A DNA stretch of 64,000 nucleotides, taken from the IMG/VR virus record IMGVR_UViG_3300037067_015055; one strand, given 5' to 3'. The notes below the pieces were generated by a model that was given only the letters and a program-made list of their open reading frames with translations, made no database searches and had not been told where the DNA came from. This DNA comes from a virus. Both the position numbers and the translations under genes were made by a program. Each line of letters opens with the position of its first letter. Position 1 is the first letter of the stretch. Shown here piece by piece: positions 49,751 to 59,411 of the stretch.

Positions 49751-50716
49751 ATGGGCGCTAAAATAGAGCTAGATATTTACACAATATATTCAGAACATTG
49801 TCGTGGAGTATCTGTCAGTTATTTGTCGAAAAAATATTCAGTTTCAAGAGAAACATTATTTAGAAGATTCAAAAGCCTTGGCCTTAAAACTAAGACTAAA
49901 ATGTCTTTATATAATGCTCAATCTGAGAATATAATACGTTTGTATATTTCAAATAATTCAATACAGGATATTTCTTTAACTTTATCAATTCCAGTTACTC
50001 AAGTATGGCGAGTTTTAAAATCAAATAACATTAAGGCTACCGAACAATATAATTACGTAAATAAATTTAATAAGTACGAGATTAATGAATATTTTGATAC
50101 TATAGACACTCCAAATAAAGCTTATTTTCTTGGTTTATTGTATGCTGATGGAAATGTAAACCGTAAACTTAATCAAATTACTTTAAAATTAAAAGCCTCT
50201 GATGTTCATATTTTAAATGATATAAAATACGAATTTGGAATAAATGGACCATTATACAAAGATAGACCAAAAAATCCAAGGGCAGAAAATCAACTGGCCC
50301 TAAAAATAATCAATAAACGCACAAAAGATAATTTTATAAGACACGGCGTAATTCCAAGAAAAACATGGAGATTAAGTTTTCCATTCTGGTTACCTCAAAA
50401 CTTGAGAAGTCACTTTGTTAGAGGTTATTTTGATGGAGATGGCTGTCTTTATATTGATCGGAATAGAAATAATGCGTCTTTTGATATATGTGGCACATAT
50501 AACATGTGCTCTGATTTGGAATTTGTACTGAAAAATTCCATTGGAGTTTGTACGCAAATTTCAAAAGATCGAAATATTTTTCGTATCAGAATTAGAAGAT
50601 ATATAGATGTAGTGGCTGTATGTAATTGGATGTATTATGATGCCAAGTTATTTCTCAAAAGAAAATATGATAAATACCAGGAAATTAGGAGTATGAATGT
50701 GCGCAACGTTTTATGA
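49751..50716 (+). CDS. Free-standing LAGLIDADG homing endonuclease with N-terminal HTH-like DNA-binding repeats
   Basis: Two LAGLIDADG motifs: AYFLGLLYADGNV and RGYFDGDGCLYI; very AT-rich (~28% GC) relative to flanks; inserted between two glycosyltransferase genes. Confidence 0.85.
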   Translation: MGAKIELDIYTIYSEHCRGVSVSYLSKKYSVSRETLFRRFKSLGLKTKTKMSLYNAQSENIIRLYISNNSIQDISLTLSIPVTQVWRVLKSNNIKATEQYNYVNKFNKYEINEYFDTIDTPNKAYFLGLLYADGNVNRKLNQITLKLKASDVHILNDIKYEFGINGPLYKDRPKNPRAENQLALKIINKRTKDNFIRHGVIPRKTWRLSFPFWLPQNLRSHFVRGYFDGDGCLYIDRNRNNASFDICGTYNMCSDLEFVLKNSIGVCTQISKDRNIFRIRIRRYIDVVAVCNWMYYDAKLFLKRKYDKYQEIRSMNVRNVL

Positions 50717-52333: not shown

Positions 52334-53431
52334 ATGATTCCTATCTACAAACCGTTTTGGCCAAAAAACTCCAAGAACTATGCACTGAAGGCGCTGGAGG
52401 ATTGTTGGCTCATTATGCACGACAACAATACTATCGTGGAAGAACAGCTTGCAGAAAGGACTGGTGCAAAACATGTTATTCTTACATGTAATGGAACGGC
52501 CGCTATTCATTTGGTAGCTAAATGCCTACAATATAAGCATCCAGAAGTTACCCAACTTATCGTGCCTAATCTGGTCTATGTTGCTGCCTGGAATGCATTC
52601 CTACAAGAAAATTTCGGCCTGCATATGGCTCGAACAAATCTGAATACATGGAACTTCGATGTGGAACATGTTGCTAAGCTGGTTGACTTTAAGAATTCGG
52701 CCATTCTTGCTGTTCATAATCTTGGTAATCCACTACCAGTCCAAGAACTTCTTAAATTTGGAATTCCTGTGGTGGAAGATGCCTGTGAAGCGCTATTTGG
52801 CAGCTACGGTGGCCAGAAGGTTCCGTCCCTAGGCTTGGCCTCAGCTTTATCATTCTTTGGTAACAAAACAGTTACATCAGGAGAGGGTGGCGCTTTTGTA
52901 ACAAATGATGATGAATTAGCTGACTATGCCAAAAGACTACGCGGTCAAGGGCAAACAAGTCAAAGGTATATTCACGATGTCTTGGGATACAATTATCGGA
53001 TGACTAATATTCAAGCGGCGATATTAAGGGGACAATTAGAGTATGCCGATGAAATATTAGATAGAAAAGCTGATATATGGAATTATTATGATGAGGCTTT
53101 TTCTAATAGAGAAGATGTTCTTATACAAATGACAGAGAAGGATAGTTCCCATTCAAAGTGGATGTATGGAATTAGACTCCCTAATAGGAATGAATCATTT
53201 GAGGTTAAGCAAGCATTCTTTAATAGTCGAGGGTTTGACATTAGGCCAATGTTTTATCCTATGAGGTATCATGCTCATCTAAAAGAAAATCGTAATGTCT
53301 GGATTTGTAATGATGAAGTTGGAGATTTAATATCTCAAAGTTCGATAATGCTACCGAGTTTCCCAGATATAACTAGGGAAGAGCAATCAATAGTGATATC
53401 TTCCGTGAATGAGTTTTTGTGTCATTATTAA
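52334..53431 (+). CDS. PLP-dependent sugar aminotransferase, DegT/DnrJ/EryC1/StrS family
   Basis: ...TCNGTAAIHLVAKCL...VVEDACEALFGSYGGQKVPSLG...SFFGNKTVTSGEGGAFVTNDDELADYAKRLRGQG matches the family hallmarks including the active-site Lys region (F..NK.i..GEGG). Confidence 0.8.
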   Translation: MIPIYKPFWPKNSKNYALKALEDCWLIMHDNNTIVEEQLAERTGAKHVILTCNGTAAIHLVAKCLQYKHPEVTQLIVPNLVYVAAWNAFLQENFGLHMARTNLNTWNFDVEHVAKLVDFKNSAILAVHNLGNPLPVQELLKFGIPVVEDACEALFGSYGGQKVPSLGLASALSFFGNKTVTSGEGGAFVTNDDELADYAKRLRGQGQTSQRYIHDVLGYNYRMTNIQAAILRGQLEYADEILDRKADIWNYYDEAFSNREDVLIQMTEKDSSHSKWMYGIRLPNRNESFEVKQAFFNSRGFDIRPMFYPMRYHAHLKENRNVWICNDEVGDLISQSSIMLPSFPDITREEQSIVISSVNEFLCHY

Positions 53432-53575
53432 TTTCTCGAAGCATTTATGACAACTGTGTAGATGAATTGATGGAATTTAAAACTAAATGTTTAGGGTATT
53501 TAAGAGATAAGAGATCTAACTCTGGCTTAGTAAATAATTTGCCAATGAGGTCATGATTGCTGACAAAAGGATAAG

Positions 53576-54733
53576 ATGAATATTGAAATTATCAAAAGAG
53601 CTATCTATGCCGTAATTCCGAAGAATGTACATGTTTCTAATGTAGATATCAAAGAGGACAATGGAAAGCTATCCATACAGATTAGCTGGGCAGTTTTTAC
53701 GGATAGCGCGCCCAGATTGGATTTGGAATTCGGTAGTGATAATAATTGGTGTGATGGATATGTCCGCATACCTACCCACCCACCCATTATAGACTTCGAT
53801 CAACGGATACCTATTGGTAAACTGGATTTACCAGAGGCCCTTCAAGAGGCCAACAAGCTTCGGGCAGAAGAGATTGATAAGTCGAATGCTGAATCTATTA
53901 GAGAGGCAGAAGATGCTCGTATTTTGGAAGAGTTAATCAAGAAAGCTACTGGTCCAGATGCGGTAACAAAGCCCACAGCTGATGTGCGAGAAGTGCGAAC
54001 GCCAGAAGGTAGAAAGGTGAATCGAATCAGCCTTCCGAAAGATGTGACTGTGGTTGCCAAGGGTACTGACCAATATGAAAAGGCTCTGATTCGTGCAGGA
54101 ATAGATCCGTTAATAGCTAAAGACATGGCTGAACCATTGCCACCAAAAAAGCCATTGCCACCAAAAAAGCAACTAAAGATAACCGTAGAAGGAAAGTTGG
54201 TAACTCCAATTGATCTACCCTTGCGAGAGTTGAAAGTTCCTAGCCCAAATACCAAGGCAGAAGCTGAATTTCGTAGGAAGATTTATCCAGGAGTCTTTCG
54301 GCGTGCAGAACCAGACGGTTACACTACAATCATTGTTGATGGTAAACCAAAGGTGATTGATGGTTACCAGAAGCCGCGCAATGTCAAAAATGCTTTTGAG
54401 GTAGTTGCCGAGTACAAGAAGGCCGTTGAGGCGTACGATAAGCGCTTTGCGAATGTTAGGTCGCCTCTCGCACCAAAGCCGAATGCCAATGATAAAGGCA
54501 AGCGTGGTGTTGCTGCTCTCACGTCTCATGCCCTACCTTTCTCACATCGGGATAGGAAGGTTACTGATGTTGAAGTTATGTTCATGGCCAATGAGAAGAT
54601 GGCAAAATTAACAGATTCGCCTTCGTTGCTTGATGACCTGAAAGCTATCGAAGTCAAGCTGCCACCTCAAACCAAGCTCAATAGAATAATGTTCCATCTA
54701 AGATCAATCAAGAACGAAATACTAAGGAAGTAA
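53576..54733 (+). CDS. Hypothetical protein (385 aa) with tandem PLPPKK repeat
   Basis: Complete ORF; 18-nt exact tandem duplication at 54134-54169. Confidence 0.3.
   Translation: MNIEIIKRAIYAVIPKNVHVSNVDIKEDNGKLSIQISWAVFTDSAPRLDLEFGSDNNWCDGYVRIPTHPPIIDFDQRIPIGKLDLPEALQEANKLRAEEIDKSNAESIREAEDARILEELIKKATGPDAVTKPTADVREVRTPEGRKVNRISLPKDVTVVAKGTDQYEKALIRAGIDPLIAKDMAEPLPPKKPLPPKKQLKITVEGKLVTPIDLPLRELKVPSPNTKAEAEFRRKIYPGVFRRAEPDGYTTIIVDGKPKVIDGYQKPRNVKNAFEVVAEYKKAVEAYDKRFANVRSPLAPKPNANDKGKRGVAALTSHALPFSHRDRKVTDVEVMFMANEKMAKLTDSPSLLDDLKAIEVKLPPQTKLNRIMFHLRSIKNEILRK
54134..54169 (+). repeat. Exact 18-nt tandem duplication (ccattgccaccaaaaaag x2), in frame (PLPPKK x2)
   Basis: Seen directly. Confidence 0.9.
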
Positions 54734-54807
54734 TGGCTAAGAGGAAGAAAGTTCTAGTAACAGGTAGTGGTGGCCTCTATCAATATTTAGATATTTGTAT
54801 ATGTTGA
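54733..54807 (+). pseudogene. Remnant 5' fragment of an NAD-dependent epimerase/dehydratase gene: encodes MAKRKKVLVTGSGG then diverges and stops
   Basis: First 14 aa identical (one L/M difference) to the N-terminus of the intact epimerase gene at 55675 but with 11 synonymous nucleotide differences; immediately upstream of a homing-endonuclease-like gene. Confidence 0.55.
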
Positions 54808-55682
54808 TTTCGGAGAGACCTTTAGGTAAAAGAACTAGGGAGTTTTTGATTAGGTGTGAATCGTGTGGAACTGAAGAATGGTTGCCTGGTAAGAAATGTA
54901 AGTTTGGTGGCAGAAGGTATTGTTCAAAGAAGTGCATTAATCTTGGGCGACATAAATCAGAAGAACAAAAAAAGCATTTATCCGATGTAAGTCTTGGAGA
55001 AAAGAATCACTTCTTTGGGAAGCGCCATTCTAAGACATCAAAGGAAAAAATGTCAGAAACTCACAGCGATCTTGGTGGTCTATACCATATGATGAAAGCC
55101 AAACTATCAGCTGATGAGTTTGATATTTACTGGAGTGAATACTGCAGTAAATTTATTGGTGCCAAAAATCCATTCTTTGGAAAGGTGCATTCCTCAGCTA
55201 CCAGAGCAAAGATATCAATAACAAGATCTAATCTAATATCAAGTGGCCAAATTGATATCAAGCCTAGTCATTATGGACTTAAAGGATATTATACATCAAA
55301 AAAAACAGGAGAGGTGTTTAGGTTCGATTCCTTTACAGAATATATTAGGATGATTGTTCTTGATACGGATGATAATGTTACAACGTGGACAAAAAGACAT
55401 AAAATAAGAATCCAGTATGAATTCGATGGTGAACAGAAGAACTATATACCAGATTTTTTAGTTGCTAAAATTGATGGCGAGGTTATAGAGGAAGTGAAGG
55501 GTTATGAGAATAAAAAAAAGAAGGAAGCGAAATTTTCAGCTCTGCGGGCATACTGTAAAGAACATGGGTTTGGTTGTAGTATTGTGACATATGAGGATGT
55601 CAGAAATATGTGTCTGAGTCATTTTGGGAAAAGTATAGATGTTTTAAGAGAACAATACAAAAAGGGATTATTTCATGGCTAA
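54801..55682 (+). CDS. Homing-endonuclease-like protein: N-terminal CxxC Zn-finger, two NUMOD3-like motifs (NHFFGKRHSKTSKEKMS, NPFFGKVHSSATRAKIS), C-terminal PD-(D/E)xK-like nuclease motif (IPDFLV...IEEVKG)
   Basis: Motifs read from translation; inserted between a gene remnant and its intact copy; start ATG 54801 (ORF track used TTG at 54795). Confidence 0.5.
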   Translation: MLISERPLGKRTREFLIRCESCGTEEWLPGKKCKFGGRRYCSKKCINLGRHKSEEQKKHLSDVSLGEKNHFFGKRHSKTSKEKMSETHSDLGGLYHMMKAKLSADEFDIYWSEYCSKFIGAKNPFFGKVHSSATRAKISITRSNLISSGQIDIKPSHYGLKGYYTSKKTGEVFRFDSFTEYIRMIVLDTDDNVTTWTKRHKIRIQYEFDGEQKNYIPDFLVAKIDGEVIEEVKGYENKKKKEAKFSALRAYCKEHGFGCSIVTYEDVRNMCLSHFGKSIDVLREQYKKGLFHG

Positions 55683-56604
55683 AAGAAAGAAGGTAATGGT
55701 CACTGGTTCAGGAGGGTTTATTTTCGGAAACTTCATTCGACAAGTTTTCTATTCTAAGCTGCCCTACACCATTTCTAGTATTGACAGGGTAAGAGACTCC
55801 CATATCATTCATAATATCTATGTGAACGCCGATCATTCGTTCCATATTGCGGATATTACGGATGCTCATATTCTACATGTAATCTTTGAGAAGGAACGCC
55901 CAGATATTGTAATACATGGTGCGGCTGAAACTATAGATGAACAGTCGATGAACAGCCGCAACATTTTTGGCACCAAGGCTGTCGTCAATGAATGCTTGAA
56001 GATGGAGTCGAAGCTGATTTACGTGAGCACAGATCGAGTTTATGGAGATCTTGGATCCGAGGAGGTTCCGCTTCGGAAGGAGGCTGATCCAGTCAATCCA
56101 CATGGAGTTCTTGCAACAACCAAGGCCAGCGGCGAGGCGTTCGTCAAGGGCGCTTCTGGTTTGGATTACAACATTATTCGCCTGAGCAATAATTACGGGC
56201 CATGGCAGACGGTTTCGGGTCTCATTCCTCATATTATTGATGGAATATTTGATGAGAAACCAGTTGAGATATATGGGACTGGATCTCAAACAAGAGATTG
56301 GACTCATGTCTTTGATACTTGTTCTGCGATATTTGCTATTATCGAAAATTGGGTTGGCGGAGAGATATATAACATAACTTCCAAACAGGAATTTAGCAAT
56401 CTTGAGGTTGTTCAAATAGTTTGTAATGCCCTTAGTAAAGGGCATGAGTTAGTAAAACATGTCGAGAGAGATTTTGATTCTAGATATGCTATGGCTAATG
56501 ATAAAATCAAAGCACTAGGGTGGTCTCCACAATTCAAGTTCAGAGATGGAATTGCTCAGACTTGCCAATGGTATCTGAATAATAAATATGTGCTAAAGAT
56601 GTAA
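55675..56604 (+). CDS. NAD(P)-dependent sugar epimerase/dehydratase (extended SDR family)
   Basis: VMVTGSGGFIFGNFI Rossmann motif; YVSTDRVYGD; NPHGVLATTKASGE region (expected PYxxSK has His in place of catalytic Tyr); NNYGPWQ. Confidence 0.75.
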   Translation: MAKRKKVMVTGSGGFIFGNFIRQVFYSKLPYTISSIDRVRDSHIIHNIYVNADHSFHIADITDAHILHVIFEKERPDIVIHGAAETIDEQSMNSRNIFGTKAVVNECLKMESKLIYVSTDRVYGDLGSEEVPLRKEADPVNPHGVLATTKASGEAFVKGASGLDYNIIRLSNNYGPWQTVSGLIPHIIDGIFDEKPVEIYGTGSQTRDWTHVFDTCSAIFAIIENWVGGEIYNITSKQEFSNLEVVQIVCNALSKGHELVKHVERDFDSRYAMANDKIKALGWSPQFKFRDGIAQTCQWYLNNKYVLKM

Positions 56605-56618
56605 TATTTAGGTAAATA

Positions 56619-59411
56619 ATGGTAACTCAATCAAAAGTTGAAATTTTAAATCAAGAGGAAATCGTGAACGACATAGAGGAAACACCACAAGTGGATTTGG
56701 AAAAGTTAGCTGCACTAAAGGCCCGAGCCGCTCAAAAAAGAGCTGAGGAAGAGGCTGCTCAGAATGCGGTGAAAACAGAACAGGAGGAGCCTATGCCGCT
56801 GCGCATTATAGAGGAGCAACAGAGAAGCCTTCGCTTTGGTATTATCGGTTCAGGACAGGCCGGTTGTATTGATGGTAAAACAAATGTATTTATTTCCAAT
56901 GATGGTATCATTTCTATAGAAGAGTTTTTTAATAAACAATTAAAATCTTCTACTGTACAAGATATTGATGCAAAATCAGGGGAAATATGTGTTAAATTAC
57001 CTTCTGATAAAAATATCTTTACAGTATCAATAAATCCAGAAACAGGAGAACTTTGTAAACGCAAAGTAATGGCTGTTTGGAAGTTGAAAAAACAATCTAA
57101 AAATAAGATTATAACAGAATCTGGCACTGAATTAATTTGTTCAAAGGTTCATCCTAGTTTAGTATTCAGTCCAAGCGTAAGGAAGCGTGCTCATTTTAAA
57201 TCTTTTAAATCAATTTCAAGCAGTGATCGTTTTGTTGGTATTAGATCTAGTGTTATTGATCAATTATCTTCAGAAACTTCTGTTGGGGGTATAACTATTA
57301 CTGAGGATATTGCTTGGGTTTTGGGTTTATTTGCCGGGGATGGATCCACAACAAAGAGTGGAAATGAGATAGCATTTTATCTTAGCGATTCTGGTACATT
57401 AGAAAAAGCATCTGGGATTTTAAATGGTTTATTTGCCAGTTCGATTTCTATTAGCGATCAGCCGGGTTGTAAAAAATTATCTGCTTTTGGGTTTAAAATT
57501 AGGTATTTCTTTGAATCTGCTTTTAATATATTTAATGGAAAGACATATGGCGGGTTTGGATCTAAAACTTTTACAATAGATATTCCTTCTTGTATATCTT
57601 CGGCTAGCTCTAATATCAGAGCCTCGTTTATTGCCGGTTTATTAGATTCTGATGGAACAATTTGCAAAGATTGGTGTGAGTCGAGTATCTCTACTGTCTC
57701 TGGGTTATTAGCAGATAAGTTATGCTGCTTAATTGCCTCTATTGGTGGTAGGGCTCATGTTGAAGTGGTACTTCCTAGAAACGGAAGGGATAACGAGAAA
57801 ACTTGTTATAGAGTTAGGATTAGTGGTAAAATAAATCATGGACCACTGTTAGATAAAATAGTTGAGTGTCTTGCACATTCAGACAAGAAAGATAAACTTA
57901 ATTATTGGTTAAGTGCAAATCAAAAAAGCTTTATCTCTTCTTCTGTACCTTTATCGTTTGAAGAGTTGTCTTATTGGTTAAAAGATGAAGGAGGGATGAC
58001 AACTGTTAATAATTTATCAGAACGTTCTGGTGTGTGTTTAAAGGGCTGGAGTCGTGGTGAAAGGAAGTTATCTATTCCAGCATTTGAGAAAATGCTTGAT
58101 GTTTTAGAACCCTCAGAACAAGCTGAATATATCAAATCAATTTGTCCAAAGTTGGATGTGGTCAAGGAGGTGTTTGAAGATATTGAATCTGATGATATTT
58201 TTTATGACTTAACCGTTGAAGAACATGAAAATTATTTAGCTGGTAATTTTGGATTTATTTTTACTCATAATAGCCGTCTTGCTGAGCAATTTTTCGCACT
58301 TGGATATCCTTCGGTTTGTATGAATACAGCCCCTCAGGACTTGGAGAATATCAAGATCCCTGAACAGCAAAAACTGCTCTTGGACTTTGGTTTGGGTGGT
58401 GCTGCCAAAGATCTGTCTATCGGCCATGATGCTGCAGACGCCTATCGTGCCGCCATCAACCAACTGATTCAGCGTCATCTCAGTGACGCAGAGATGTTCA
58501 TCTTCTGCACGTCACTTGGAGGCGGATCTGGCGCAGGATCTGTTCCTGTTGTAGTTGATATCCTGGCACAAATTGGGAAGCCAGTTGCGGTGCTCACGGT
58601 TCTTCCAAAGGCCAGCGAAGATGCTCAGCTCAAGCACAACGCATGGCAAACCTTGAGTAAGTTCACGAAGCTTTTCGCTGATGGCAAGATTCACAATATC
58701 ATTACCGTTGATAACGCGAAGATCGAATCGTTGTACAGTGAGGTTGGGCCATTCAATTTCTTCAACGTATCAAATAAGGCCATCGTAGAGCCTCTGAACG
58801 TCTTCAATACGCTCAGCCGCCGGCCAGATGAAGGCGTCAAGGTTCTGGACTCCAGCGAGTTCGGCAAGCTGTTCATGGACGGCCGTGGATTCACTGTATA
58901 CGGCGTCACCAGCGTCCCAGACTACGAAGATGAGATGGCAATCGCCACCGCTATCGTAGACTCTCTCAAGGGCAATCTGCTTGCTTCTGGGTTCAACATT
59001 CGGCAGGCTCGATATGCCGGTTTCATGCTCGTAGCTCCGGAGAAAATCTGGAACAAGATTCCAAGCTCCAGTCTCCACTTCGCACAGTCTATGATTCTTG
59101 ATGCCTGTGATGGAGCTGTCATCTTCCATGGTATTTACAAGGAAGAATCTGATGACGATTGTATCAAGGTCTATTCGATGTTCTCTGGGCTTGGGTTACC
59201 AGAGGAAAGAATTGATCAACTGAAGACCGAAGCACAGTTGAAGATTGGAGTGGCGCAGCGCAAGGACGAGGCGCGCAATCTCACAATGAAGGTTGACGTT
59301 GGCGAAGAGACCGTCAATCAGGTTGAGGAAATCAAGAAGAAGATTCAGCAGAAAGCCTCATCCTTCACCAAGCTTCACAATGCGGCCGTACAAGACAGGA
59401 GAAAGAAGTGA
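56619..59411 (+). CDS. Tubulin/FtsZ-superfamily GTPase (PhuZ/TubZ-like phage cytoskeletal protein), 930-aa precursor interrupted by a 469-aa intein; mature extein ~461 aa
   Basis: N-extein ends FGIIGSGQAG and C-extein resumes SRLAEQFF (together a tubulin T1-loop-like GQAGsrlaeqF, cf. tubulin GQCGNQIG); tubulin signature SLGGGSGAGS (GGGTGSG-type) downstream. Confidence 0.65.
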   Translation: MVTQSKVEILNQEEIVNDIEETPQVDLEKLAALKARAAQKRAEEEAAQNAVKTEQEEPMPLRIIEEQQRSLRFGIIGSGQAGCIDGKTNVFISNDGIISIEEFFNKQLKSSTVQDIDAKSGEICVKLPSDKNIFTVSINPETGELCKRKVMAVWKLKKQSKNKIITESGTELICSKVHPSLVFSPSVRKRAHFKSFKSISSSDRFVGIRSSVIDQLSSETSVGGITITEDIAWVLGLFAGDGSTTKSGNEIAFYLSDSGTLEKASGILNGLFASSISISDQPGCKKLSAFGFKIRYFFESAFNIFNGKTYGGFGSKTFTIDIPSCISSASSNIRASFIAGLLDSDGTICKDWCESSISTVSGLLADKLCCLIASIGGRAHVEVVLPRNGRDNEKTCYRVRISGKINHGPLLDKIVECLAHSDKKDKLNYWLSANQKSFISSSVPLSFEELSYWLKDEGGMTTVNNLSERSGVCLKGWSRGERKLSIPAFEKMLDVLEPSEQAEYIKSICPKLDVVKEVFEDIESDDIFYDLTVEEHENYLAGNFGFIFTHNSRLAEQFFALGYPSVCMNTAPQDLENIKIPEQQKLLLDFGLGGAAKDLSIGHDAADAYRAAINQLIQRHLSDAEMFIFCTSLGGGSGAGSVPVVVDILAQIGKPVAVLTVLPKASEDAQLKHNAWQTLSKFTKLFADGKIHNIITVDNAKIESLYSEVGPFNFFNVSNKAIVEPLNVFNTLSRRPDEGVKVLDSSEFGKLFMDGRGFTVYGVTSVPDYEDEMAIATAIVDSLKGNLLASGFNIRQARYAGFMLVAPEKIWNKIPSSSLHFAQSMILDACDGAVIFHGIYKEESDDDCIKVYSMFSGLGLPEERIDQLKTEAQLKIGVAQRKDEARNLTMKVDVGEETVNQVEEIKKKIQQKASSFTKLHNAAVQDRRKK
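56865..58271 (+). mobile_element. Intein with LAGLIDADG homing-endonuclease domain, inserted in the GTP-binding T1 loop of the tubulin-like gene
   Basis: Starts Cys (CIDGKTNVFISNDGIISIEEF, Hint block A), ends ...FIFTHN followed by Ser (+1); internal LGLFAGDGS and FIAGLLDSDGT LAGLIDADG motifs; ~33% GC versus ~47-49% in exteins. Confidence 0.85.

What the first reader, a model, noticed from the sequence alone, without database searches (positions are those of the whole stretch)
54733..55720. Homing-endonuclease insertion footprint: duplicated, synonymously recoded 5' end of the epimerase gene
The 14 N-terminal codons of the epimerase (MAKRKKV[L/M]VTGSGG) occur twice. One copy at 54733 is followed by a frameshifted stop. 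The other at 55675 continues into the intact gene. The two copies encode the same peptide with 11 nucleotide differences (AAG AGG AAG AAA GTT CTA GTA ACA GGT AGT GGT GGC versus AAA AGA AAG AAG GTA ATG GTC ACT GGT TCA GGA GGG). Between them sits an ORF with NUMOD3-like motifs and a PD-(D/E)xK-like C-terminus. This is what co-conversion during endonuclease homing should leave: a flanking tract from a diverged donor next to the recipient copy, or the reverse. The pattern dates the insertion and marks the target site at about codon 15 of the epimerase.
Basis: seen in the sequence. Interest (0 to 1): 0.7.

Follow-up and report, generated by a model that had tools for sequence, protein, structure and literature searches.

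The report
Homing endonuclease carrying replacement gene start
A selfish nuclease gene has inserted inside the first 15 codons of a phage sugar-epimerase gene and brings its own recoded copy of those codons so the gene still works, and the same layout recurs across a whole family of such elements, so it is a built-in design rather than a one-off scar.

Summary
MAKRKKV[L/M]VTGSGG is encoded at 54733 and at 55675. The copies differ at 13 of 42 nt (not 11), almost all synonymous. The 293-aa ORF between them has a 4-Cys motif, two NUMOD3 repeats and a TnsA-like PD-(D/E)xK nuclease.

Close relatives (epimerase 74-95% identical) lack this ORF, and their upstream gene abuts the epimerase. The "one-off footprint that dates the insertion" reading is wrong. 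Relatives of the nuclease (33-69% identical) sit in the same layout in at least 13 other phage or metagenome lineages: old gene start, short tail with a stop, nuclease gene, then a new ribosome-binding site, start codon and diverged first codons fused to the nuclease 3' end. The host genes are SDR epimerases or UDP-glucose dehydrogenases, always cut at the glycine-rich nucleotide-binding codons.

Decay stages exist: L005 keeps only the last ~110 nt of the nuclease gene, and L060 looks like a deletion derivative.

Best reading: an intragenic free-standing homing endonuclease cassette that carries a replacement 5' gene end. The displaced copy probably serves as homology arm and translational leader (inferred). 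The closest known parallel is fungal mitochondrial mobile ORFs that duplicate gene 3' ends. I class it as a new variant of a known kind.

The parts
53576..54733 (+). Upstream gene (385 aa, no family match). Its TAA stop overlaps the ATG of copy 1 (TAATG), the same junction as in relatives that lack the nuclease gene.
   Evidence: L063 and L065 show ...AAGGAAATAATGGCT... with the epimerase directly attached.
54733..54777 (+). Copy 1: the displaced original 5' end of the epimerase (codons 1-14 intact, codon 15 CTC instead of TTY), still in its native ribosome-binding-site and TAATG context.
   Evidence: The peptide MAKRKKVLVTGSGG is identical to the functional N-terminus of the nuclease-free relative L065.
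54733..54807 (+). Leader ORF (24 codons: copy 1 plus a 10-codon tail). Its TGA stop overlaps the nuclease start region (ATGTTGA).
   Evidence: A leader ORF ending 17 nt before to 7 nt after the nuclease ATG is present in 11 of 11 related loci examined.
54775..54800 (+). Conserved 26-nt left end of the element and 5' leader of the nuclease gene (CTCTATCAATATTTAGATATTTGTAT). It has no Shine-Dalgarno sequence.
   Evidence: It is 22-23 of 26 nt identical to L078 and L077, although the nucleases there are only 55-58% identical and the host genes 39-59%.
54801..55682 (+). Free-standing homing endonuclease gene (293 aa). It has a 4-Cys motif (aa 19-45), NUMOD3 repeats (aa ~49-85 and ~118-150) and a TnsA-like PD-(D/E)xK nuclease (aa ~160-265; invariant E180, D218, E231, K233). 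G+C is 35.5% against 41-44% in the flanking genes.
55662..55667 (+). Shine-Dalgarno-like AAGGGA for the epimerase, encoded inside the conserved C-terminal ...YKKG... codons of the nuclease (dual coding).
   Evidence: The host start has 4-6 of 6 matches to AGGAGG in most related loci where it was scored (weaker in two, L077 and L123). The nuclease start has only 2-3 of 6.
55675..55719 (+). Copy 2: the element-borne replacement 5' end (start codon plus codons 2-15). Its ATG overlaps the last codons and stop of the nuclease gene by 8 nt. It is recoded relative to copy 1 (Ser AGT to TCA, Leu to Met, and other changes).
55675..56604 (+). Intact NAD-dependent sugar epimerase/dehydratase (309 aa), the host gene of the element.

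Best explanation
Window 54775-55719 is a mobile homing-endonuclease cassette inserted inside the coding sequence of a phage SDR-type sugar epimerase. It sits at codon 15/16, within the codons for the glycine-rich NAD-binding loop (TGSGGF). The cassette encodes a site-specific nuclease built from a 4-Cys motif, two NUMOD3 DNA-binding repeats and a TnsA-like PD-(D/E)xK catalytic domain.

The cassette does not rely on an intron or an intein to spare the host gene. It carries, fused to the 3' end of its own ORF, a ribosome-binding site, a start codon and a diverged copy of the first 15 codons. A full-length epimerase is therefore re-created immediately downstream.

The gene's original 5' end is pushed upstream and survives as a 24-codon leader ORF that stops at the nuclease start codon.

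Shown: the anatomy, the nuclease family, presence/absence among close relatives, decay intermediates, and recurrence of the same layout across a large nuclease family and several host-gene families.

Inferred: (a) the nuclease cuts uninterrupted alleles near these codons and spreads by double-strand-break repair; (b) copy 1 acts as the left homology arm and is refreshed by recombination with functional target genes; (c) the nuclease, which has no Shine-Dalgarno sequence, is translated at a low level by termination-reinitiation from the leader ORF; (d) divergence of copy 2 from copy 1 protects the rebuilt gene from re-cleavage and lowers repeat-mediated loss of the element.
For: Nuclease identity:
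- Pfam NUMOD3 E 3e-15 and Tn7_TnsA-like_N E 4e-8.
- PHROG 15427, annotated 'endonuclease'.
- A profile of the family hits the I-TevI DNA-binding domain, PDB 1i3j.
- AlphaFold model with pLDDT 83; its best PDB fold matches are TnsA 1t0f and 1f1z, E 2e-5.
- E180, D218, E231, K233 and four Cys are invariant in 16 relatives.

Presence/absence:
- L060-62 (epimerase 95% identical), L063-64 (91%), L065 (86%) and L066-71 (74%) have the upstream gene directly abutting the epimerase, with no nuclease gene.

Same site and layout in relatives 55-69% identical:
- L072-75, L076, L077, L078/L101 and L081 each have a leader such as MAKRKKVLVTGSGGF..* and a different real N-terminus, for example VRKIKLMITGSGGF.

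More distant relatives (29-43% identical; L123, the most distant, was not included in the leader analysis):
- SDR epimerases in L079, L080, L103, L105, L107 and L108.
- UDP-glucose dehydrogenases in L114 and L123.
- In 13-14 of 25 loci scored, the upstream match to the host N-terminus exceeds every control window.

Boundary between host and element DNA:
- Copy 1 differs between loci almost only at synonymous sites. Window versus L072 has 9 differences, all synonymous; overall pS is 0.4-0.9 and pN 0-0.28.
- The adjoining 26-nt tail is 85-88% conserved.

Decay series:
- L005/L006 keep copy 1, the last ~110 nt of the nuclease gene and copy 2.
- L081 has a frameshifted nuclease gene.
- L060 has the copy-2-type 5' end preceded by TTTC, which is the window-specific nuclease 3' end. 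This fits a ~940-nt deletion with 2-nt microhomology.

Expression signals:
- The nuclease ATG has no Shine-Dalgarno sequence, while the host start has one inside the nuclease's 3' codons.
- The leader stop lies within 17 nt before to 7 nt after the nuclease ATG in 11 of 11 loci.
- There is no + strand terminator in the region.

The locus is identical in four independent assemblies.
Against: - No cleavage, homing or expression data exist. Target site, immunity and translational coupling are all inference.
- Which copy is native to this lineage is not cleanly resolved. Copy 2 is 41/42 identical to the closest nuclease-free relative, L060. I explain this by treating L060 as a deletion derivative. 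Copy 1 is only 33/42 and 35/42 identical to L063 and L065, lower than the flanking identity.
- Conservation of the copy-1 peptide could reflect selection on the peptide itself rather than refreshment by homing.
- No leader was recognisable in several distant loci (L104, L109, L115, L083, L120, L136).
- The loci share ancestry, so counts such as 11 of 11 are not independent events.
- The literature check covered only the held open-access library.
Confidence: 0.75

Rival explanations
1. One-off insertion scar. A single homing or illegitimate-recombination event left a functionless, decaying copy of the 5' end, and its divergence from the live copy dates the event.
For: The duplication and the nuclease gene are real. 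Close relatives lack the insert. Copy 1 ends in a short out-of-context tail with a stop.
Against: The same layout occurs with nuclease relatives down to 33-40% identity and with other host-gene families. No copy 1 carries an internal stop or frameshift before the glycine motif in the loci examined. Its stop always lies at the nuclease start. Differences between loci are overwhelmingly synonymous, and synonymous sites between copy 1 and copy 2 are saturated, so no date can be read.
Confidence: 0.08
2. The insert is a self-splicing element (a group I or II intron, or an intein). Copy 1 would be the true exon 1 and copy 2 would be incidental.
For: Nuclease genes inside coding sequences are usually housed in introns or inteins. 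The neighbouring tubulin gene does carry an intein.
Against: No Rfam intron match at E<=10 in 53000-57500. Only 26 nt of non-coding sequence lie outside the nuclease ORF, which leaves no room for a ribozyme core. No conserved RNA structure was found. The nuclease is in a different frame from copy 1 and is separated from it by a stop codon, so it cannot be an intein. In most related loci where it was scored, copy 2 has its own Shine-Dalgarno sequence, and a start codon in all.
Confidence: 0.02
3. A programmed frameshift or ribosomal bypass fuses the 15-residue leader to the nuclease, so the leader is really the N-terminus of the endonuclease.
For: The nuclease ORF is in the +2 frame relative to the leader in 11 of 11 loci. 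The leader peptide is conserved.
Against: I saw no canonical slippery heptamer in the tail by eye, and no conserved stimulatory structure was found. The stop-to-start distance varies from 17 nt before to 7 nt after the nuclease ATG, whereas a fixed recoding site would be expected. Every family member has its own conserved Met start. The constant frame may simply be inherited.
Confidence: 0.05
4. The ORF is a domesticated nuclease or DNA-binding regulator, or a defence gene, stably linked to sugar-modification genes. It would no longer be a mobile element, and the duplicated start would be a regulatory upstream ORF.
For: The position upstream of nucleotide-sugar enzymes is conserved. NCBI annotates the identical protein only as a 'NUMOD3 domain-containing DNA-binding protein'.
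Against: The gene is patchily present or absent among relatives whose epimerases are 74-95% identical. There are truncated and frameshifted copies. It associates with unrelated host genes, always at conserved motif codons. Its G+C is low relative to its flanks. The catalytic residues are invariant. All of these are hallmarks of a selfish homing cycle.
Confidence: 0.08

Closest known systems
Fungal mitochondrial mobile endonuclease ORFs (mORFs) that create 'gene hybrids': Allomyces macrogynus atp6 and Glomus sp. atp6/atp9/cox2/nad3 (PMC3630166, read). [quoted passage not shown]
   Same: An endonuclease ORF inserted inside a protein-coding gene carries a foreign copy of the gene's end that replaces the native one. 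The native end is displaced and kept next to the element. The two copies differ mostly at synonymous sites.
   Different: The phage case is the mirror image. The 5' end is duplicated, and the element supplies the ribosome-binding site and start codon. The nuclease is not fused in frame to the host gene. The nuclease family differs (TnsA-like PD-(D/E)xK with NUMOD3, versus LAGLIDADG or GIY-YIG). The hosts are phage genomes. The layout is conserved across a whole nuclease family and several host-gene families.
Free-standing homing endonucleases of T4-like phages (seg and mob genes; 'intronless homing'), reviewed in PMC2988022.
   Same: No intron or intein is involved. The gene is present or absent between related phages. 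Spread is presumed to be by break repair with co-conversion of flanks. Starts overlap or abut the upstream ORF, which suggests translational coupling (for example mobE UAAUGA).
   Different: The T4 examples sit between genes or split a gene. That review contains no mention of duplication of a host gene end (the search term 'duplicat' found nothing). Their nuclease families are GIY-YIG and HNH.
Gene-splitting insertions: mobE in nrdA of phage Aeh1, and mobA between T4 genes 39 and 60 (PMC2988022).
   Same: A nuclease gene is inserted at a functionally critical, conserved part of a coding sequence without a splicing element.
   Different: In those cases the host protein is made as two polypeptides that must reassemble. 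Here the downstream ORF is complete and the upstream fragment is redundant.
I-TevI and other NUMOD3-containing homing endonucleases.
   Same: A NUMOD3 repeat plus a Cys-rich element as a modular DNA-binding region. The family profile matches the I-TevI DNA-binding domain 1i3j at E 7e-4.
   Different: The catalytic domain is a TnsA-like PD-(D/E)xK fold at the C-terminus, not an N-terminal GIY-YIG domain. The gene is not intron-encoded.
TnsA of Tn7, and from my own knowledge the PD-(D/E)xK homing endonuclease I-Ssp6803I.
   Same: The nuclease fold and the E...PD...ExK catalytic pattern. TnsA is the best structural match.
   Different: Only about 18% identity to TnsA. There is no TnsB/C/D/E partner and no transposon ends. 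I-Ssp6803I is intron-encoded and lacks NUMOD3 (from memory, not tested here).
Integrating elements that carry a replacement 3' end of a tRNA or protein gene within attP (general knowledge).
   Same: The element restores the target gene it interrupts by bringing a duplicate of the gene's end.
   Different: Those elements use an integrase and a short identical core. Here a nuclease is presumed to work through homologous repair, and the duplicate is deliberately diverged.

Membership tests
Free-standing homing endonuclease gene | Encodes a site-specific DNA endonuclease domain with an intact catalytic centre | tested here: met
   Pfam TnsA-like N-terminal domain and NUMOD3 above cut-offs. E180, D218, E231 and K233 are invariant. 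The best fold match is TnsA, E 2e-5.
Free-standing homing endonuclease gene | Present or absent at the same locus among closely related genomes | tested here: met
   L060-71 lack it although their epimerases are 74-95% identical.
Free-standing homing endonuclease gene | Gain, degeneration and loss cycle visible | tested here: met
   L005/L006 keep only the last ~110 nt. L081 is frameshifted. L060 looks like a deletion derivative.
Free-standing homing endonuclease gene | Cleaves the empty allele and is preferentially inherited | not testable with these tools
   Needs a biochemical cleavage assay and mixed-infection or plasmid-to-phage homing assays.
PD-(D/E)xK nuclease, TnsA-like | Helix Glu, strand (P)D and strand (D/E)xK motif on a restriction-endonuclease-like fold | tested here: met
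   E180 lies in helix 178-189. PD218F and E231-V-K233 lie on adjacent strands of the model. Foldseek matches to TnsA have probability 1.00.
Tn7-like transposon | TnsA accompanied by TnsB/TnsC and transposon end repeats | tested here: not met
   The neighbours are sugar-modification and tubulin genes only. No transposase is present.
Group I or group II intron | Ribozyme core detectable; exons joined in frame after removal | tested here: not met
   No Rfam hit at E<=10. Only 26 nt lie outside the ORF. No conserved structure was found.
Intein | In-frame insertion with splicing blocks and no internal stop between exteins | tested here: not met
   The leader ends in a stop, the nuclease is in another frame, and there is no intein domain. 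For contrast, the tubulin gene at 56619 has a true intein.
Gene-end-replacing mobile endonuclease ORF (fungal mitochondrial mORF type) | Element inserted in the host coding sequence and carrying a diverged copy of the gene end that becomes the expressed one | tested here: met
   Copy 2 is fused to the nuclease 3' end and continues into the full-length ORF. This is so in 13 or more lineages. Expression itself was not tested.
Gene-end-replacing mobile endonuclease ORF (fungal mitochondrial mORF type) | 3' (C-terminal) end duplicated; LAGLIDADG or GIY-YIG nuclease, often in phase with the host gene | tested here: not met
   Here the 5' end is duplicated, the nuclease is PD-(D/E)xK with NUMOD3, and it is out of phase. 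This is a mechanistic analogue, not a member.
Split-gene ('genes in pieces') insertion | The host protein is encoded as two complementary fragments | tested here: not met
   The downstream ORF is a complete 309-aa epimerase covering the Pfam model 1-239/240. The upstream fragment duplicates residues 1-14.

The most novel reading that the evidence does not exclude
Phages harbour a previously undescribed class of homing-endonuclease cassette. A nuclease family built from a TnsA-like nuclease and NUMOD3 repeats (at least 107 clusters at 50% identity with E<=1e-30) invades coding sequences at conserved N-terminal nucleotide-binding-loop codons. It neutralises the damage by bringing a recoded replacement 5' gene end, rather than by RNA or protein splicing. 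It also exploits the displaced original start as homology arm and translational leader. This would be a third general solution, beside introns and inteins, for a nuclease gene to live inside a gene.
Probability: 0.55. Interest if true: 0.78.

Novelty: new variant of a known kind. Interest (0 to 1): 0.7.

Why it matters
Homing endonucleases are thought to survive inside genes only by hiding in introns or inteins, or by splitting the gene. This locus and its many relatives show another route in phages: the element carries a spare, recoded start of the gene it interrupts.

- It defines an uncharacterised nuclease family, apparently specific for the DNA that encodes Rossmann-type glycine loops. 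That gives a set of natural long-site nucleases with predictable targets.
- It provides natural pairs of presumably cleavable (copy-1-type) and resistant (copy-2-type) sequences from which recognition rules could be read.
- It explains short 'orphan' ORFs and mosaic 5' gene ends in phage annotations.
- It offers a clean system for studying the gain, decay and loss cycle of these elements in uncultured jumbo phages.

Tried and rejected
- Nucleotide search of the 3-kb locus against 50,697 deposited phage genomes found nothing, so all comparisons rest on metagenome contigs.
- The Rfam scan found no intron or other RNA family.
- A consensus RNA fold of the leader/nuclease junction in 7 loci gave no supported structure: -0.09 kcal/mol and no covariation.
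- The promoter and terminator scan gave nothing specific at the junctions.
- The conserved 26-nt tail motif does not recur in the window, so it is not a general phage promoter motif.
- The upstream 385-aa gene shows no similarity to the long upstream proteins of more distant relatives and matches no Pfam or PHROG family.
- The scan of cellular genomes found only nuclease-domain-only relatives, with no full-length family members, and was not pursued.
- A sliding identity comparison with L060, L063 and L065 showed no sharp co-conversion boundary beyond copy 2 itself.
- Literature searches pairing NUMOD3 with TnsA (no papers) and TnsA-like with homing endonuclease (one unrelated review), plus searches for a phage precedent for gene-end duplication, found none in the held library.
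- A possible third host class, DEDD exonuclease in L082 and L085, has the nuclease directly upstream. The leader match there is not better than the controls, so I do not count it.


Full report
**1. The observation**

The window encodes MAKRKKVLVTGSGG at 54733-54774 and MAKRKKVMVTGSGG at 55675-55716.

- The first copy starts on the stop codon of the upstream 385-aa gene (TAATG). It runs 10 more codons and stops at 54805-54807.
- The second copy continues as a complete 309-aa NAD-dependent epimerase/dehydratase (Pfam PF01370, E 2e-36).
Only one amino acid changes. pS is 0.93 and pN is 0.13.
- Scored against the epimerase N-terminus, the stretch upstream of the intervening ORF gives 66. The best of 1047 control windows gives 35.
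- The 1.2-kb region is 100% identical in contigs assembled independently from four samples, so it is not an assembly artefact.

**2. The ORF between the copies is a nuclease of homing-endonuclease type**

ORF 54801-55682 (293 aa) shows the following.

- It matches NUMOD3 (56 bits; cut-off 20) and the TnsA-like endonuclease N-terminal domain (34 bits; cut-off 26.5). It also matches PHROG 15427, annotated 'endonuclease'.
- In an alignment of 16 relatives, four cysteines (C19, C22, C41, C45) are invariant. So is the PD-(D/E)xK set E180, D218, E231 and K233.
- A profile of the family finds the I-TevI DNA-binding domain in the PDB.
- An AlphaFold model (pLDDT 83) has TnsA as its best structural matches (E 2e-5, probability 1.0).
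- Its G+C is 35.5%, against 41-44% for the flanking genes.

**3. Close relatives lack it**

Contigs carrying epimerases 95% (L060-62), 91% (L063-64), 86% (L065) and 74% (L066-71) identical have the same gene order but no nuclease gene. The upstream gene's stop overlaps or abuts the epimerase start. This is the same context that copy 1 has in the window.

**4. The duplication is a family-wide layout, not a local scar**

Nuclease relatives 55-69% identical occupy the same position in other phage contigs. Each is preceded by a short ORF that repeats the epimerase N-terminus, and each is followed by an epimerase whose real N-terminus is different.

| Locus | Leader ORF | Real host N-terminus |
|---|---|---|
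| L072-75 | MAKRKKVLVTGSGGFHQLSCIFV* | VRKIKLMITGSGGF... |
| L076 | MVKRKKILVTGSGGIYQYSDM* | MAKRKKLMITGSGGF... |
| L078 | MSKSRKILVTGSGGLCQYLDI* | MVKKINVLITGSGGF... |
| L081 | MGKKQKILVTGSGGFCQYCDI* | VDKKKKLLITGTGGF... |
| L077 | MKTVLCTGSCGFYQYFDIFICI* | MDRKNILISGSCGF... |

More distant relatives (29-43% identical; the lowest, L123, was scored but not in the leader analysis) show the same thing with other genes.

- SDR epimerases: L079 (MRVLITGGAG* versus VRILVTGGCGF), L080, L103 (MRIAITGATGFWQ* versus MRISLTGANGF), L105, L107 and L108.
- UDP-glucose/GDP-mannose dehydrogenases: L114 and L123.

In 13-14 of 25 loci scored, the upstream match to the downstream N-terminus beats every control window of that locus. 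Two further loci, L081 and L105, are clear by eye. In every case the break falls in or just after the glycine-rich dinucleotide-binding loop.

The nuclease family is large: 107 clusters at 50% identity with E<=1e-30, and 2,356 with E<=1e-10. No full-length member was found in 185,579 cellular genomes.

**5. Where host DNA ends and element DNA begins**

In the seven closest loci the leader ATG and the nuclease ATG align without gaps.

- Across loci, copy 1 differs almost only at synonymous sites. Window versus L072 has 9 differences, all synonymous. Overall pS is 0.4-0.9 and pN is 0-0.28.
- The next 26 nt (54775-54800) are 85-88% identical between elements whose nucleases are 55-58% identical and whose host epimerases are 39-59% identical.

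So copy 1 evolves like a coding host sequence and the tail evolves like a constrained part of the element. Codon 15 is TTC (Phe, as in the host) in L072, L077 and L081, so the junction is most likely after codon 15.

At the other end, the nuclease stop codon lies inside epimerase codons 2-3, an 8-nt overlap. The epimerase's Shine-Dalgarno-like AAGGGA is encoded by the nuclease's conserved C-terminal ...YKKG... codons. Copy 2 and its translation signals are therefore physically part of the cassette.

**6. Decay intermediates**

- L005/L006 have copy 1 (MAKRKKVLVTGSGGI, in TAATG context) followed directly by the last ~110 nt of the nuclease gene (residues 257-293) and then copy 2 and the epimerase.
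- L081 has a frameshifted nuclease gene.
- L060 has no nuclease gene. Its epimerase 5' end is 41/42 identical to the window's copy 2 and is preceded by TTTC. That is the window-specific variant of the nuclease 3' end; other family members have TTTA. This fits a deletion of about 940 nt with 2-nt microhomology.

Together with the empty sites, these give the gain, degeneration and loss series expected of a selfish homing element.

**7. How it most likely works**

Shown: the anatomy, the polymorphism, the conservation of the layout, and the catalytic residues. The rest is inference.

(a) The nuclease recognises uninterrupted alleles around codons ~8-20. After cleavage the cassette is copied in by homologous repair.

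(b) Copy 1 is the left homology arm. It stays similar to target genes because each homing event can recombine within it. That would explain the purely synonymous divergence without requiring a function for the peptide.

(c) The nuclease start has no Shine-Dalgarno sequence (2-3 of 6 matches) in any locus. The leader ORF always ends between 17 nt before and 7 nt after it (ATGTTGA in the window, ATGA in L072, TAATTATG in L076). I therefore favour low-level translation by termination-reinitiation. This has been suggested for T4 mobE and other overlapping free-standing nuclease genes (PMC2988022).

(d) Copy 2 is systematically unlike copy 1.
- In the six epimerase-group lineages compared, copy 1 reads [V/I]LVTGSGG and copy 2 never does; copy 2 reads MVT, MIT or LIT.
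- The Ser codon is AGT in copy 1 and TCN in copy 2 in the window, L072 and L076. It is reversed in L077 and replaced by Thr in L081.
- Most copy-2 flanks read TTT ATT TTC GG, where empty sites read TTT GTY TTT GG.

Such divergence would protect the rebuilt gene from re-cleavage. It would also reduce repeat-mediated deletion of the cassette and keep the recipient's 5' end from pairing with the wrong copy.

**8. Rivals**

- A one-off scar is contradicted by sections 4 and 5.
- An intron is excluded. There is no Rfam hit, only 26 nt of non-coding sequence lie outside the ORF, and no conserved structure was found.
- An intein is excluded by the stop codon and the frame change.
- A leader-nuclease fusion by frameshifting is not excluded. 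The nuclease is in the +2 frame relative to the leader in 11 of 11 loci. However, it lacks a slippery site or a fixed geometry.
- A domesticated regulator is unlikely given the patchy distribution, the decay forms and the invariant catalytic residues.

**9. Comparison with what is known**

The closest mechanistic parallel is the fungal mitochondrial 'mobile ORF' elements. These insert into atp6, atp9, cox2 or nad3 and bring a foreign C-terminal coding segment that becomes the expressed one, while the native C-terminus is displaced downstream. The two copies differ mainly at synonymous sites (Allomyces macrogynus and Glomus sp.; PMC3630166; see also PMC7487136).

The phage cassette is the mirror image, and it differs in four ways:
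- it replaces the 5' end and supplies the translation signals;
- it uses a different nuclease family;
- it is not fused in phase to the host gene;
- its layout is conserved family-wide.

Among phages, the described fates of intragenic nuclease genes are introns, inteins and split genes. The T4 mobile-element review contains no instance of host-gene-end duplication. My searches for a phage precedent, or for a nuclease combining a TnsA-like domain with NUMOD3, found none. That library is incomplete, so prior description cannot be excluded.

**10. Verdict**

The 'footprint that dates the insertion' should be replaced by a homing-endonuclease cassette that carries a recoded replacement 5' end as a conserved design. 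I rate it a new variant of a known kind, with interest 0.7.

Noticed in passing
window 56619-59411 (+); intein about 56865-58271: The tubulin/FtsZ-like (PhuZ/TubZ-type) gene is interrupted by a 469-aa intein with a LAGLIDADG endonuclease. The intein sits right after GIIGSGQAG, the glycine-rich nucleotide-binding loop. L002-L005 and L065 have intein-less 457-470-aa versions. L063, L066 and L072 carry the intein. So two different selfish elements in adjacent genes both target N-terminal glycine-loop codons.
   Followed up: partly
window 49751-50713 (+): A free-standing 321-aa LAGLIDADG-domain ORF (Pfam E 2.5e-10) lies between two glycosyltransferase genes. It is absent from the otherwise collinear relative L065, so it is probably another homing endonuclease gene.
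   Followed up: partly
window 54775-54800: The 26-nt stretch between copy 1 and the nuclease ATG is much more conserved (85-88%) than the nuclease protein (55-58%) or the host gene (39-59%) across elements. It has no recurrence in the window and no conserved RNA fold, and its function is unexplained.
   Followed up: partly
window 54733-54807 versus 54801-55682, and 10 related loci: The nuclease ORF is in the +2 frame relative to the leader ORF in 11 of 11 loci, including distant ones with different tail lengths. This could be shared ancestry or a constraint, and it is not resolved.
   Followed up: partly
window 53432-53575 (45-aa ORF at 53419-53556): A spacer of about 145 nt with a 45-aa ORF separates the DegT aminotransferase gene from the 385-aa gene. 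In L060 and L065 those two genes overlap directly. The first ~700 nt of the 385-aa gene are also much less conserved (55-78%) than its 3' end.
   Followed up: no
L002 1308-3470; L004 3-1052; L065 11864-12930: Relatives carry inteins in other genes: GDP-mannose 4,6-dehydratase in L002 and L004, and DnaB helicase in L065. This phage group is unusually rich in selfish elements, with a different set in each genome.
   Followed up: no
L082 2881-4067; L085 2752-4060: A more distant branch of the same nuclease family sits immediately upstream of, and overlaps the start of, a DEDD 3'-5' exonuclease gene (Rv2179c-like). In L085 a possible displaced N-terminus (KKVTKLFFDFE versus KQPVKCFFDLE) scores no better than the controls.
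   Followed up: partly
whole window (proteins P0001 and P0121): The identical epimerase and nuclease proteins are deposited at NCBI under 'Candidatus Pacearchaeota archaeon' and lie on a contig of up to 463 kb. The gene content (phage-type tubulin, DnaB, helicases, many homing elements) suggests a jumbo phage binned into an archaeal genome.
   Followed up: no
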